Assembly (NCBI RefSeq): GCF_006345805.1
Contig: NC_043001.1
Coordinates: 56,110,001-56,174,000, forward strand
DNA from: Octopus sinensis
Lineage: Eukaryota
Length of the DNA stretch: 64,000 nucleotides
Direction of reading: 5' to 3'
The notes under the pieces are model-generated. The model worked only from the letters and a program-made list of their open reading frames with translations, searched no databases and was not told the origin of the DNA. The position numbers and the translations under genes were made by a program. Positions 11,822-42,716 of this stretch are shown piece after piece (positions within the stretch are counted from its first letter, which is position 1; each line of letters begins with the position of its first letter).

Positions 11822-12345
11822 ACACACCCGTAAAATCGAAGTAAGAAGATGAGAAAGTATTTGAGAACATCCTTATTTCTAATCACAACTGTTTCGATAT
11901 CAGCCCAATTTTAACACCATTTGCACATAAACGATTTCATGTGAAAAGTTATGAAATATTTACGGTTCATTTACATTGGTGTGGCACTTCATCAGGATTA
12001 CATCAAAAGGTTTGGTCACATATATATATCTGTATCTATCTATCTATATACACACACACACACACACACACACACCACACACACACACACACACACACAC
12101 AACACACAACACACACACACACACACACCACACACACACACCCGTAAAATCGAAGTAAGAAGATGAGAAAGTATTGAGAACATCCTTATTTCTAATCACA
12201 ACTGTTTCGATATCAGCCCAATTTTAACACCATTTGCACATAAACGATTTCATGTGAAAAGTTATGAAATATTTACGGTTCATTTACATTGGTGTGGCAC
12301 TTCATCAGGATTACATCAAAAGGTTTGGTCACATATATATATCTG
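11822..12345. repeat. Tandem duplication (period ~313 bp) of a unit containing a hammerhead-like motif
   Basis: CCCGTAAAATCGAAG...GGTTTGGTCAC occurs at ~11827 and ~12141, nearly identical, separated by (AC)n. Confidence 0.9.
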
Positions 12346-12539
12346 TATCTATCTATCTATATACACACACACACACACACACACACACACCACACACACA
12401 CACACAAACACACACACACCACACACACACACACACCACACACACACACACACACACACCACACACACACACACACACACCACACACACACACCACACAC
12501 ACACACATATATATATATATATAATATATATATATATAG

Positions 12540-12880
12540 CATGGCTGTTTGGTAAGAAGCTTGCTTCCCAACCACATGGTCTCCGGGTTCAGTCCCACTG
12601 CGTGACACCTTGGCTGGTGTCGTCTACTATAGATTCGGCCCGACCAAAGCCTTGTGAGTGGATTTGGTAGACGGAAACCCAAAGAGGCCCCTATGTGTGT
12701 CTTTGTGTCTGTGTTTTTCCCCCACCATCGTTTGATGCTATGTTATGTTTATGTCATCGTAACTTAGCATCTCGGCAAAAGAGACCGATAGAATAAGTCC
12801 AGTGTCGATTCATTCGAAATTCTTCAAGGCGTACCCCAGCATGGCTGCAGTCTAATGACTGAAACAAGTAAATGATAAAA
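12540..12880 (+). mobile_element. SINE family A
   Basis: TGGCTGTTTGGTAAGAAGC head, GGTTCAGTCCC B box, 3' CAGCATGGCTGCAGTCTAATGACTGAAACAAGTAA. Confidence 0.85.
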
Positions 12881-13064
12881 GAAGAAAAACACACTTGTTC
12901 ATGCACATATATACATGTATGTATATGTATGTGTGTATGTATAATTATAGACATGCATATGATATGCGAACAAATGAAAGAAAGATGAACTCAACACATT
13001 TTGATAGAGTTGTGAGTTTAATATAGCTTGATTATGTGTGTGAATATATATATATATTCTTATA

Positions 13065-13400
13065 TTCTTTTATTTGTTCCTGTGACTTGACTGCGGCCAT
13101 GCTGGAGCACCGCTTTTAGTCGAACAGGTCGACCCTAGGACTTATTCTATATCAGTCTCTTTTGCTGAACAGCTAAGTTACGAGGACGTCAACTCACCAG
13201 CATCAGTTGTAAAGCGATGTTGGGTGGGGGAGACAAACACAGACCCCCCCCCACACACACACACTACGGTCTTTTTTCAGTTTTCGTCTACCAAACCCAC
13301 TCACAAGGCTTTGGTCGATCCGAGGCTATAGTAGAAGACACTTGCCCAAGGTGCCATGCAGTGGGATTGAAATCGGAACAACACAGCCACTCCTACACCT
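13065..13400 (-). mobile_element. SINE family A
   Basis: Reverse-complement match to family A over most of its length. Confidence 0.8.
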
Positions 13401-38799: not shown

Positions 38800-39560
38800 G
38801 GATCTTTACCTTTTGACCGACAGATTTTAAAAATAATTTTTTCTAACTAAACACTTTCAAACTTCGTATACTGGTAGAATGTGTCACATAAAACATTTTT
38901 TACTCTTGGCGTTGTTGAGAAAATTCTGTATTTTGGAAGTCATTTCTTGTTAAATTTGTCGTATTTCGGTAATTTTACCCAATCAATGACGTATATTCAG
39001 CTGAATAAAATTATTGCTGTTGTTTGTCAACAACAACTTCCGGCGGTGTATATTTCGTCTGTCACTGTTATTTATGACATATTTCATCTCAGTTACGTTT
39101 GTATGAATAAACGAGTGTATCTGAAGCATGTTTACTTCATGGCACCACTATAATCGTTCGTGCTTTATTTTTTATTTTTTTCCGTAACTCTAGCCCTAAA
39201 ACCCCAACCCTATCCCTAATCCTAACCCTAGAACCCTAACCCTAACCGTAAAACCTTAAAGCTGAAACCAGTACAAACGCACGAACGATGTCACGAATAA
39301 CAGTGACAAGCGAAATATACACCGCCGATAGTTGTTGTTGACAAACAACGGCAGTAATTCTATTCAGCTGAATACACGTCATTGATTGGTTGAAATTACC
39401 GAAATATGACAACTTTAACAAGAAATAACTTCCAAAATACAGAATTTTCTCAACAACGCCAACAGTAAAAGATGTTTTATGTGACACATTCTACAAGCAT
39501 ACGAAGTTTGAAAGTGTTTAGTTACAAGAAATTATTTTAAAAATCTGTCGGTCAAAAGGT
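38800..39560. mobile_element. Fold-back/MITE-like element with ~270-bp inverted arms and a (CCCTAA)-like core, inserted in a family C2 SINE
   Basis: Arms 38808-39080 and 39288-39560, reflected in the mirror ORFs MSHKT.F..GVVEKILYFGS on both strands. Core 39183-39260. Flanks rejoin to the sequence seen intact at ~58865-58900. Confidence 0.85.
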
Positions 39561-42189
39561 GGAAGACCAACAGTCGCCTATGTATACCAGCCTCCCCTCT
39601 CCACACCACCGATGCTGGAATCGAATGCACCACCTCATGATTGTGAGCCCGACGCTCTTACCACCGAGCCATGTTATTTATATTATATTGAAAAACAGAG
39701 TCTCTATTGCCAGCAAGTCAGTACGTTGGTAAACGACAGGCTCTTGATGTTAGAAGTATAATAGTTCTATTATTTATATGTAAATGTAGACGGTCACCAC
39801 CTGCACACTGTCTTTCTACTCAGTCTGTGACATAATTGTTATGCTAATGTCGTCGCGGCATAACATGCGTTTTGTATGCTTGCACGTGGTGAGGACTATT
39901 TCAGGCAGTTTTTCTCAAGCGTTTTGACTTTGCGGTGCACAAACACACACAAACACACACACACACACACACACACACACACACACACATATACACACAC
40001 ACAAACGAATAAATAAATAAATATATAATGTTACTTTTGCAAAATGGATTCTATCAGCATGTTTCGTTTCACGTATATATTTTAAATCATTGCGTTCATT
40101 TTAACGCACCAATTAATATAACACACACACACACACACACACACACACACACACCACACACACACACACACACACACACACACGCACATGTATACGGACA
40201 ATGCAACACAAAATTAACCAAGCTTTAAAAATTATGCCGAGGATGTAAACTAACAATTTTCACTATTTTTGACATGATGGCAAACTTGGGACTAAAAAAA
40301 CATAAAAAAAATTACTGACGCATTTTGTGTAGAAAAAGGAAAAAAAAAATTCTGTCATGTGAAAGATTTATGAAAAAGAAAAAGAAAAGAAGAAGAAAAC
40401 ACTGCTTAACTTGTTTTTGCTAATAATACTTGTATATAATAAGAATATATAAATAAGATGTTTTTCAGGACACACAAACAAAAGAGTAGATTTTCTAAAG
40501 CCATAAAACATGTACTTGGTTATCTTTGTGGAGCCTAAGTGCGCCGCAGTGTATCCTTTGCGAATAACTGATTTAAGGTGACTACCGGTTCGATGTTGGA
40601 AAAAGCAGTTTTATGGTTTGCCGATTGGATAACATTGGTGAACCACGATATTAGTGATTACCACACATCTAAAGGTTTGAAATTACAATTGTGGATATAA
40701 GTAATTATCGTATACACGTCTGTTGACAGGCTCAATTGTACACTTGAAAATGTAATTTCCGTTTTCTTTTCACTTATAGACGTTGATATTTGGCCCTCGA
40801 TCAAACTTGATAAAGTAACTCTACAATCAAAGGCATTCTAGCCGTGACCATCTCGACATTCTGTTTATTTATGTCTAACACTGTCCAATGTATCTTTTTT
40901 CAAAAGAAGGATGATGATTTGAGGGAGATTTCATTGTCACCTTTAGCAGATCGAGTGATTGCGTAGATGCTTCACTAGTGGTGCCTTTTGGCTATTATCT
41001 AAGATAATCATTGTTGCATGAGTCTCCAAAGGATATTCGAACAACAACAACAGTAACGACAACAACAGCAGCCATAGAGTAACTATGTAAGAACAACAAC
41101 TACAATATTGGCAGCAGTATCAACGAAGAGAAGAACGGAACGGAAACAATTTCAATGTTAACAACAGAAAGGAAGACGTCACGCCAGTTAGTGAAACAGG
41201 AAGCAGGAATAATAGATTCTATGACCAACTAGGTGACGTCAGACGCGCGCACACGCACGTGTGTGTATGTGTGTGTGTGTGTGTATGTGTGTGTGTTTGT
41301 GTGTGTGTCTGTGTGTGTGTGTGTGTGTGTTTTGTTCGATGCTGCAAAACTCTCTTGTGGTGTCCCATTTGCTCTGCAACAACAATAGCCAAGTTGACTG
41401 ACTGACTGACTAATGGACGAAGCATCCCTCATACTTCATGAGAGTGGGTAATAAATAAATAGATAAATAGACGTTTTCTTCCACACTTCTTCTTTCATTA
41501 CATCTGTGCCTGGCTCCTAAGATGATTGCTTTTTATTTGGCAGAGGAAGATTTCACATATCGTAGTGTCTCCATATCCAACTACACACACACACACACAC
41601 ACACACACACTTACAATACACACATGCGCAAACACATACACACAATACACACACACATATATACAAATACACACATACGCACAAACACACTCAAACACAC
41701 ACACGTACAAACGTACACACACACTCACAGACACGCACATACACATGCAAGCACAAAGATATCTGTAAGAGCATATATAAATATTCAAGTACATAGGTGT
41801 AAATGCATGTTTCAATATGATGCATTCACGTATATATATATATATATATATATATATATATATACACACATATGTATGCATGTATGTATATGTGTGGGTG
41901 TGTGTGTGTATGCGTGTGTATGAGTGAGTGTGTGTGTGTGTGTGTGTGTGCATGTGTGTGTGTATGCATATTAGCCTTTCCCATCGAAAGTGACATACGA
42001 GCACCCAGTCGTTCGATTAACTAGACGACCTACTCACAGAAGTAGCAGAATATGCCCCCCCACCCGACACGTGTACCCATAACGTAATTCTCAAGTGGGT
42101 TCAATACATGTGACGAGAATCTTCAGAGTTTCTGTCCATCCACTTTTACTTACAAAGTAAAGGTCGACCCGAGGTTATAAAAAACATTG

Positions 42190-42395
42190 ACATCAAATTT
42201 TTGCACAAGGCCAATAATTTCGGGGAAGGTGGGTAAGTCGATAGGACCCCAGTACTCAACTGGTACTTATTTTATCGACCCAGAAAGGAATGCAAGGCAA
42301 ACTCGACCTCGGTGGAATTTGAACTCAGAGTGTAAAGACGGACGTAATGCCGCTAAGCAATTTGCCTGGCGTGCTTACGATCGTGCCAGCTAGCT
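42190..42395 (-). mobile_element. SINE family B
   Basis: Full head-to-tail match to family B. Confidence 0.8.
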
Positions 42396-42716
42396 AATCT
42401 GAGGTTATAAAGAAGGATATTACTCAAGTAATATCGCCATGATAGTTCGTTAGCTCCTACACGCATTTTTCTCTCCTTTTTTTTCTCTCATTCTTTCTCT
42501 CCTTGTTTTTTTCTGTGTATCTTTCTCTCAAAGAGCGTAGGCTCGAGACGTAAAAGACTTTTTCTATTCCTGACCGCTATACTAATACATTTGTTTGTTT
42601 GTACTCCACCTGCCTTCGTCTTTTGTTTATTTTCGTAAACTTTCCCTTTATTGCTCAAGTAAGTTCGCTTCACAAGCATGAGGAGTCTCATGGTTTGTGT
42701 TTTCATGGTTTGTGTT

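What the first reader, a model, noticed from the sequence alone, without database searches (positions are those of the whole stretch)
11880..42556. Diverse set of minimal hammerhead ribozymes in unrelated short elements
About ten motifs fit stemI-CUGANGA-stemII-GAA-stemIII-UH-stemI: 11880-12000(-), 12193-12313(-), 14045-14100(+), 14513-14550(-), 24512-24559(-), 27379-27415(+), 28155-28228(+), 32488-32525(+, weak), 33653-33692(-), 42520-42556(+, decayed). Flanking sequences differ between families, yet stem III is repeatedly (near-)palindromic: ACAGCTGT, ACCAATTGGT, ACTC-A-GAGT, ACGT, ACC-CAA-GGT. This matches the dimerisation-dependent design described for PLE hammerheads. Most sit in or beside (TA)n or (AC)n tracts, and I found no PLE coding sequence here. 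Inference: many non-autonomous ribozyme-bearing families are spread densely in this genome.
Basis: partly seen in the sequence, partly recalled or inferred. Interest (0 to 1): 0.8.

Follow-up and report, generated by a model that had tools for sequence, protein, structure and literature searches.

The report
Penelope retroelement tails carrying minimal hammerheads
The ten motifs are real but decayed hammerhead-ribozyme folds from eight unrelated repeat families, four of them broken tail ends of Penelope-like jumping genes and three short non-coding units likely carried by such genes, which is a known arrangement; one family also has a tRNA-like segment in its tail that likely acts as a promoter for short SINE-like copies.

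Summary
The ten motifs belong to eight dispersed repeat families, and other genomic copies restore the broken parts and the palindromic helix III. Every window copy has at least one defect. A strict descriptor gave 33 hits in 576 kb of flanking DNA against 0.65 in shuffles, about 20 families.

The reading 'non-autonomous families' is half right. Four families are 5'-truncated 3' ends of protein-coding Penelope-like elements (PLEs): one Neptune-type, one Penelope/Poseidon-type, two Hydra-type. Three are ORF-less, circularly permuted 404-482-nt units (retrozyme-like). One is unresolved. This is the known minimal hammerhead of PLE pseudo-LTRs, and the scan found such tails before in other genomes.

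Two twists I did not find in print. (1) The Poseidon-type parent carries a tRNA-like A/B-box segment 29 nt after its stop codon, and short copies start sharply there: likely RNA polymerase III transcripts, though reverse-transcriptase stalling is not excluded. (2) The Neptune-type family keeps U instead of the core A6 across subfamilies. Cleavage was not tested, within-family covariation was not above shuffles, and RNA reads were uninformative.

The parts
11831..12011 (-). Family F12k copy 1; hammerhead 11880-12000 with long stem II; G at the cleavage site (family: A). Parent not found
12145..12324 (-). Family F12k copy 2; local 313-bp tandem duplicate of copy 1, with its (CA)n tract
13510..13642 (-). 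Inverted arm of the F14a insertion
13656..14300 (+). Family F14a: more than one unit of a 482-nt ORF-less circularly permuted repeat; hammerhead 14045-14100 (U3; C13 in this copy)
14378..14556 (-). Family F14b: 5'-truncated 3' end of a Hydra-type PLE, between (TA)n tracts; hammerhead 14513-14550 (C4 here, canonical U4 in the coding copy L347)
24443..24688 (-). Family F24k: 3' end of a Hydra-type PLE ending in (TA)n; hammerhead 24512-24559, canonical core, one stem II mismatch
24689..24853 (+). Inverted arm of the F24k insertion (3' end plus tail extension)
   Evidence: read from the sequence
27373..27515 (+). Family F27k: 3' end of a Neptune-type PLE ending in (TA)n; hammerhead from 27379 with U6 core (CUGUUGA) and 4-nt helix III
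27843..28055 (-). Inverted arm of the F28k insertion
28052..28370 (+). Family F28k: part of a 482-nt ORF-less circularly permuted unit; hammerhead 28155-28228, canonical core, 10-nt palindromic helix III
32098..32337 (-). Inverted arm of the F32k insertion
32354..32663 (+). Family F32k: part of a 404-nt ORF-less circularly permuted unit; hammerhead 32484-32528
33597..33743 (-). Family F33k body: 3' end of a Penelope/Poseidon-type PLE; hammerhead 33650-33693 with a 5-nt deletion removing the 3' strand of stem I
33744..33775 (-). (AAT)n spacer inside the F33k element
33776..33856 (-). tRNA-like segment of F33k: first tRNA-like base 33850, A-box-like 33843-33833, B-box-like 33800-33789; most short copies start near 33856
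33857..33912 (+). Inverted copy of the F33k 3' tail at the 5' junction
42433..42651 (+). Older F27k copy (78% identical); hammerhead 42520-42556 decayed, also T at position 6

Best explanation
The motifs are decayed minimal type I hammerhead folds in the 3' ends of eight repeat families: four are 5'-truncated tails of protein-coding Penelope-like retroelements, and three are ORF-less 404-482-nt units likely mobilised by the same machinery. Shown: families, coding parents, permuted units, inverted 5' arms, palindromic helix III. Inferred mechanism: the PLE reverse transcriptase and GIY-YIG nuclease prime at a nick (at (TA)n for four families), copy the RNA from its 3' end, usually stop early and often switch template to leave an inverted arm; the hammerhead lies only about 55-230 nt from the 3' end, so nearly every stub keeps it. 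In tandem transcripts two hammerheads would pair through helix III and cut out unit-length RNA; solo stubs like these are likely dead. In family F33k a tRNA-like A/B-box segment sits 29 nt after the parent's stop codon and short copies start sharply at a purine about 6 nt before it, likely because RNA polymerase III makes a roughly 330-nt transcript there that the parent's enzyme copies (about 55% for this last step).
For: Coding parents upstream, same strand: F27k in 4 of 25 loci (CxxC linker + GIY-YIG); F33k head in 25 of 30 and body in 23 of 30 loci picked by the nuclease protein, relatives carry RT + PF26215; F14b in L347 (551-aa frame, hammerhead 1111 nt after the stop); F24k in 4 of 9 loci tested. 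Permuted units of 482, 404 and 482 nt, no frame over 66, 69, 129 aa, 0 of 30, 0 of 25, 0 of 25 with a coding remnant upstream. Inverted arm within 700 nt upstream in 13/30, 16/30, 5/30, 2/25, 14/25, 19/25, 0/25, 5/25 copies. Helix III self-complementary in all eight; dimer duplex -6.4 to -13.0 kcal/mol for six, -1.7 for the two ACGU families; monomer hairpin 0 to -0.9. The free position N7 varies while the core does not (minor allele 0.37 vs 0.007 in F33k, 0.44 vs 0.016 in F32k). Flank scan 33 hits vs 0.65. F33k 5' ends: 22 of 30 body-picked copies reach the head, 0 of 22 go on into the coding side, 16 of 22 end at about -10..+4; 25 of 30 head-picked copies end there, 5 go on; F28k 5' ends are spread from -95 to -429. 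Head is followed by body in 26 of 30 head-picked loci. T run is T3 in 19 of 24 short copies, none T4.
Against: No cleavage shown. Within-family covariation in F32k did not exceed shuffles (128 of 500 as high; one G-C to A-U pair in 7 of 25; the stem I pair next to the core is unpaired in 15 of 25). Canonical core intact in 0 of 25 (F27k), 0 of 22 (F14a), 3 of 24 (F14b), 7 of 24 (F12k). No parent or permutation found for F12k; no partner PLE for the three permuted families. For F33k, short and coding copies share no diagnostic substitution and have the same divergence (about 6%), so no separate SINE lineage is shown; 14 of 30 body-picked copies have T4 before the hammerhead; a 5-bp hairpin sits at the start site and could stall the enzyme; ARAGORN calls a tRNA in only 3 of 30 at a relaxed threshold and none in the window, and Rfam none. 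All family samples are the best matches to the window copy, so they lean to its subfamily.
Confidence: 0.82

Rival explanations
1. All eight are only truncated tails of autonomous PLEs. The F33k start site is a stall and fold-back point of the reverse transcriptase at the small hairpin or the tRNA-like fold, and the permuted units come from tandem pseudo-LTRs of parents I did not reach.
For: Four of eight are shown truncations. F33k short and coding copies are of one age with no diagnostic differences. Many short copies show a fold-back inversion at the hairpin. No read pile-up at the start site (uninformative library).
Against: Permuted units close on themselves at 404-482 nt with no coding sequence, in single copies too (5 of 30, 4 of 25, and a true dimer in F14a). 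The F33k edge is sharp, falls on a purine in both subfamily variants, and lies where a tRNA-type promoter starts (position rule recalled).
Confidence: 0.3
2. The hammerheads are vestigial passengers: the elements spread without cleavage, and families with U6, C4 or U3 cores are catalytically dead or nearly so.
For: F27k has U6 in 25 of 25 picked and T at 6 in 15 of 16 unpicked copies, A in none, yet includes copies 97-99% identical. F14b young copies have C4 in 20 of 24. PMC8557442 notes that Naiads proliferate without canonical hammerheads. PMC3088659 reports low activity for A6C.
Against: F27k varies freely at N7 (A, C, G, U) and H17 while keeping all else, which looks like selection on a variant core. 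About 20 unrelated families keep the fold. F14a has U3 with A8 in 9 of 22, the known compensated pair, though a CpG change could mimic it. PMC3088659 notes U4C supports viroid infectivity.
Confidence: 0.3
3. One reading: all are independent non-autonomous ribozyme families (retrozymes) that replicate through circular RNA.
For: Three permuted ORF-less families; tandem arrays at L179 (five units about 451 nt apart, F27k) and L007 (194 nt, F33k).
Against: Four families continue into PLE coding sequence; direct tandems are rare in the samples; 3' ends of F28k are fixed at +218..+235.
Confidence: 0.12
4. Chance matches to a short motif in an AT-rich, repeat-rich genome.
For: Relaxed descriptor gives 5.0 hits per shuffled window; no Rfam hit.
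Against: Family majorities are better hammerheads than the window copies; 33 vs 0.65 in flanks; position at PLE 3' ends as described in print.
Confidence: 0.01

Closest known systems
Minimal hammerheads (min-HHR) in PLE pseudo-LTRs (Cervera and de la Pena 2014, PMC4209133)
   Same: Type I, short stem I, palindromic helix III, many heterogeneous families per genome, mostly solo copies from truncated PLEs, inverted pairs 100-700 bp apart, U3-A8 variant.
   Different: New host group (likely an octopus; inferred from the repeat landscape, not tested); extrapolated density far above the 4,000-9,000 motifs reported there; a family-wide U6 core; a tRNA-like segment ahead of the hammerhead.
C-terminal EN+ PLE clades Neptune, Penelope/Poseidon, Hydra (Craig et al. 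2021, PMC8557442)
   Same: RT then GIY-YIG; CxxC linker in the F27k parent, none in the F33k parent; DKT, CxxC and CxH motifs in the F14b parent; 5' truncation, inverted arm, tail extension, (TA)n targets.
   Different: Clades assigned by motifs, no tree built; the F14b linker reads CxF, not CxCX5C; the F24k parent is seen only as a broken nuclease remnant.
Animal non-LTR retrozymes (PMC7229834; bioRxiv 10.64898/2026.07.22.740005)
   Same: ORF-less units with one type I hammerhead, low GC (26-36%), monomers and dimers, derived from or dependent on PLEs.
   Different: Units are 404-482 nt (published 170-400 nt circles), hammerheads are minimal not canonical, long arrays are rare, circles not shown.
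Schistosome Sm-alpha/Sj-alpha SINE-like elements (as reviewed in PMC6765202)
   Same: Polymerase III promoter plus hammerhead in a short repeat.
   Different: There tandem repeats with no PLE parent named in the passage read; here the segment lies inside the 3' UTR of a coding PLE, upstream of the hammerhead.
TRIMp3 elements Helenus, Ajax, Cassandra (PMC10886601) and tRNA-derived SINEs
   Same: Small-RNA-derived promoter captured by a retroelement end; head plus partner-derived tail.
   Different: Partners are LTR elements or LINEs, and the autonomous partner is not expected to carry the promoter; here the PLE parent carries it.

Membership tests
Minimal type I hammerhead of PLEs | Core CUGANGA...GAAA...UH | tested here: met
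   Majority canonical in F33k, F28k, F24k, F32k, F12k; variant in F27k (U6), F14b (C4; U4 in coding copy), F14a (U3)
Minimal type I hammerhead of PLEs | Palindromic helix III too weak as a monomer | tested here: met
   All eight; monomer 0 to -0.9, dimer -1.7 to -13.0 kcal/mol
Minimal type I hammerhead of PLEs | Stems I and II supported by covariation | tested here: inconclusive
   F32k 84.6% paired but not above shuffles; other families not counted; across families stems differ in sequence but were required by the descriptor
Minimal type I hammerhead of PLEs | Self-cleavage as a dimer | not testable with these tools
   No end pile-up in 3 raw RNA runs, library unsuited
EN+ Penelope-like element | RT followed by GIY-YIG upstream of the hammerhead on the same strand | tested here: met
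   F27k, F33k, F14b, F24k; RT seen for F33k and F14b, nuclease only for F27k and F24k
EN+ Penelope-like element | 5' truncation, inverted 5' arm, tail extension | tested here: met
EN+ Penelope-like element | Clade placement by RT phylogeny | not tested
   Motifs only, compared with PMC8557442
Non-LTR retrozyme (F28k, F32k, F14a) | ORF-less unit with one hammerhead, permuted or tandem | tested here: met
Non-LTR retrozyme (F28k, F32k, F14a) | [quoted passage not shown] | tested here: inconclusive
   F14a dimers at 482 and 513 nt; none in 30 F28k or 25 F32k loci
Non-LTR retrozyme (F28k, F32k, F14a) | Circular RNA | not testable with these tools
   Reads were laid on F33k
tRNA-derived SINE (short F33k copies) | tRNA-like head with A and B boxes at a fixed 5' end | tested here: met
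   Boxes read from sequence (consensus recalled); 5' pile-up; weak ARAGORN support 3 of 30
tRNA-derived SINE (short F33k copies) | 3' tail shared with an autonomous partner | tested here: met
tRNA-derived SINE (short F33k copies) | Own lineage, distinct from the partner | tested here: not met
   No column differs at p<0.01 between 24 short and 34 coding-side copies
tRNA-derived SINE (short F33k copies) | Transcription by RNA polymerase III | not testable with these tools
   uninformative

The most novel reading that the evidence does not exclude
A Penelope/Poseidon element captured a tRNA-derived polymerase III promoter in its own 3' UTR and from it throws off thousands of 330-nt hammerhead-bearing copies: a Penelope-dependent SINE caught at birth inside its parent. 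In the same genome some 10^5 minimal hammerheads of 20 or more families, one with a conserved U6 core, form a natural library for testing what the PLE ribozyme is for.
Probability: 0.45. Interest if true: 0.7.

Novelty: new variant of a known kind. Interest (0 to 1): 0.47.

Why it matters
The bulk is a known association in a new host. It matters in three ways. (1) The role of the PLE hammerhead is open (PMC8557442 says so); a genome where three PLE clades and ORF-less derivatives carry different hammerheads, including a successful family with U at the 'invariant' A6, gives matched natural constructs to test whether cleavage is needed. (2) If the F33k start site is a polymerase III start, it shows how a SINE can arise from within a PLE, a partner class I did not find SINEs assigned to. 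(3) Repeat annotation: many 'unclassified SINEs' in such genomes may be PLE tails, and Rfam misses all of these motifs.

Tried and rejected
Rfam at gathering and E-value thresholds: no hammerhead or tRNA hit. ARAGORN on the window: none. The 313-bp tandem at 11799-12455 as a retrozyme dimer: rejected, it includes the (CA)n tract and no other F12k locus shows that spacing. F33k as a free SINE plus a separate PLE stub inserting into its (AAT)n tail: rejected, head and body travel together in inverted arms and in the coding parent. F14b as part of the Neptune-type element at L219/L258: rejected, the two meet tail to tail in one (TA)n and that element has its own hammerhead. RT frames next to F24k at L220/L221 and Hydra-type remnants near F12k (L093, L104, L111): not collinear parents. 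Longest F28k copies starting at the cleavage site: not so, L036 runs about 18 nt past it. Sequencing runs: no RNA holder listed; three raw RNA runs of a related organism gave 6,150-8,283 reads on F33k, equal on both strands, no start or end pile-up, uninformative. Two metagenome scans for relatives of the F33k parent found none, so whether relatives carry the tRNA segment is open. Pfam did not recognise short or broken nuclease pieces of the F27k and F33k parents above cut-off. Lunse et al. 2017 was not held.
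Full report
Observation. The window is 36% GC and dense in microsatellites; it lies in a 2.72-Gb genome, G000, likely an octopus (my inference from the repeat landscape, not tested). A descriptor with canonical core finds 2 of them against 0.075 per shuffle (40 shuffles); with one core mismatch 12 loci against 5.0 (12 shuffles); the strictest version finds 0 against 0.1. So the window alone supports two well and shows that each copy has a defect. 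Rfam sees none.

Families. Eight own-genome searches showed each motif in a dispersed family (first-look candidates 2650, 1379, 2401, 75, 441, 517, 993, 773; lower bounds). The eight share no sequence outside the core. Alignments of the best 25-30 loci (11 duplicate rows dropped before counting) restore the damaged parts. Canonical core intact: F33k 27 of 30, F32k 21 of 25, F24k 20 of 28, F28k 14 of 26, F12k 7 of 24, F14b 3 of 24, F14a 0 of 22, F27k 0 of 25. Commonest helix III: ACGU (two families), ACAGCUGU, ACAAUUGU, ACUCAGAGU, ACCCAGGGU, ACCAAUUGGU, AUAUGCAUAU; none folds as a monomer (0 to -0.9 kcal/mol), dimers give -6.4 to -13.0, or -1.7 for ACGU. In F33k and F32k the free position N7 is polymorphic (0.37, 0.44) while the other ten core columns average 0.007 and 0.016. 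Covariation was counted in one family, F32k, and did not beat shuffles. These samples favour the window copy's subfamily.

Density. In 576 kb of flanks outside the searched elements the strict descriptor gave 33 hits against 0.65 (20 shuffles); about four are double counts and one looks like chance. By eye they fall into about 20 families. Extrapolated, some 10^5 intact-looking motifs per genome; the flanks are not a random sample, so this is an order of magnitude only.

Coding parents. F27k runs upstream into a frame with a CxxC linker and GIY-YIG in 4 of 25 loci (Pfam GIY-YIG below cut-off): Neptune-type. F33k runs into an RT thumb and GIY-YIG without the linker; of 30 loci picked by that nuclease, 25 carry the head and 23 the body, and six database relatives at 53-61% carry PF26215, five with RT: Penelope/Poseidon-type. 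F14b follows a 551-aa RT + nuclease frame by 1111 nt in L347, an inverted pair of arms, with DKT, CxxC and CxH motifs as listed for Hydra. F24k follows a broken Hydra-type nuclease on the same strand in 4 of 9 loci tested, chosen from 30 by a DNA probe, and in inverted arms in others. No PLE protein lies in the window.

ORF-less units. In F28k, F32k and F14a the sequence downstream of the hammerhead recurs upstream at 482, 404 and 482 nt, also within single copies (5 of 30, one pair a segmental duplicate; 4 of 25; the window copy and a true dimer). Longest stop-free frames are 66, 69 and 129 aa; no coding remnant lies upstream. F12k stays unresolved. Inverted 5' arms are common and five of the window insertions have one. 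(TA)n targeting holds for F14b, F27k, F28k, F24k only.

The tRNA-like segment. F33k reads: stop codon, 29 nt, tRNA-like segment with A- and B-box-like motifs (consensus recalled; ARAGORN 3 of 30 at a relaxed threshold), (AAT)n, body with hammerhead, fixed tail. Head-picked loci have the body in 26 of 30. Of 30 body-picked copies 22 reach the head and none passes into the coding side; 16 end at about -10..+4 of the first tRNA-like base, 4 at +8..+14, 2 at +32. Of 30 head-picked copies 25 end there and 5 go on. F28k 5' ends, by contrast, are spread over 330 nt. Many short copies show a fold-back that needs a cDNA end within a 5-bp hairpin at -7..-3; the base at -6 is G or A. The T run before the hammerhead is T3 in 19 of 24 short and 18 of 34 coding-side copies, T4 in none, but T4 in 14 of 30 copies picked by the window body. 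Short and coding copies have equal divergence and no diagnostic column. I read this as polymerase III transcripts from the parent's own 3' end (about 55%), with enzyme stalling at the hairpin as rival. RNA reads did not decide.

Core variants. F27k has T at position 6 in 25 of 25 picked copies and 15 of 16 found unpicked (one of them the window copy; one C, no A) while N7 takes all four bases. F14b has C4 in 20 of 24; F14a U3 in 21 of 22, with A8 in 9.

Literature. PMC4209133 (parts 1-2 of 4 read) describes this motif class, its dimer design, low activity and solo truncated copies. PMC8557442 (passages and section 11) gives clades and insertion anatomy. PMC7229834 (passages) and bioRxiv 10.64898/2026.07.22.740005 (part 1 of 5 and passages) cover retrozymes. 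PMC3088659 (passages) covers core variants; A6U was not in the passages seen. PMC6765202 (passages) reviews schistosome SINE-like elements and cites Lunse et al., which I could not read. PMC10886601 (passages) covers TRIMp3. PMC13282606 (parts 1-2 of 3) lists 31 recently active PLE and 893 unclassified SINE families in an octopus and no hammerheads in what I read; its supplement and repeat library, unseen, may name these families. PMC4758252 and PMC6962438: passages only. Searches for a tRNA segment inside a PLE 3' end, a PLE-dependent SINE, or octopus hammerheads found no such report; Repbase, Dfam and the 1994 octopus SINE paper were out of reach. Earlier scan notes show PLE tails with hammerheads and tRNA-bearing, ribozyme-free PLE-style repeats in other genomes, unchecked.

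Verdict. Real feature; mainly new members of a known kind, with one architectural variant and one core variant worth testing. Interest 0.47.

Noticed in passing
L219:1786-4172, L348:4040-6688, L260, L275: A young Neptune-type PLE (883-aa open frame in L348) whose own hammerhead has the U3-A8 core and ACAUGU helix III; many near-identical copies.
   Followed up: partly
flanks of L002-L346: About 15 further minimal-hammerhead families with helix III palindromes of 4-12 nt, for example ACGUACGU, ACAUAUGU, ACGAUGCAUCGU.
   Followed up: no
L179:500-2500: Five tandem units about 451 nt apart, each the F27k tail plus about 270 nt of other sequence: a retrozyme-like array with the U6 core.
   Followed up: partly
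L007:1300-1900: Three 194-nt tandem F33k units lacking the tRNA-like head, plus an inverted arm.
   Followed up: no
L219:700-4700: The flanking DNA on both sides of a PLE insertion, including an F14b copy, is one long inverted duplication; genomic or assembly artefact not decided.
   Followed up: no
L220:1880-4200; L221:6576-7567: Divergent RT + GIY-YIG element with a hammerhead-like fold about 470 nt after the nuclease frame; clade not determined.
   Followed up: no
window 24815-25417 (+): Tc1/mariner transposase fragment (HTH domains).
   Followed up: no
window 7802-8464 (+), 52221-52886 (-): LINE coding fragments (zf-RVT hit for the first; the second by resemblance only).
   Followed up: no
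window 6583, 7741, 10532 (+): Three copies of another repeat contain CUGANGA but gave no hammerhead hit.
   Followed up: partly
window 20079-20199: A 121-nt near-perfect inverted repeat, MITE-like (seen as a spurious microRNA match).
   Followed up: no
window 18759-19571, 43163-43650, 39190-39259: A 370-bp tandem bounded by (ACC)n, a 184-bp tandem of a common short repeat, and a short (AACCCT)n-like run.
   Followed up: no
L342:about 1150-1270 (-): The F33k 3' UTR is interrupted by what looks like a small-subunit rRNA fragment (recognised from memory, untested).
   Followed up: no
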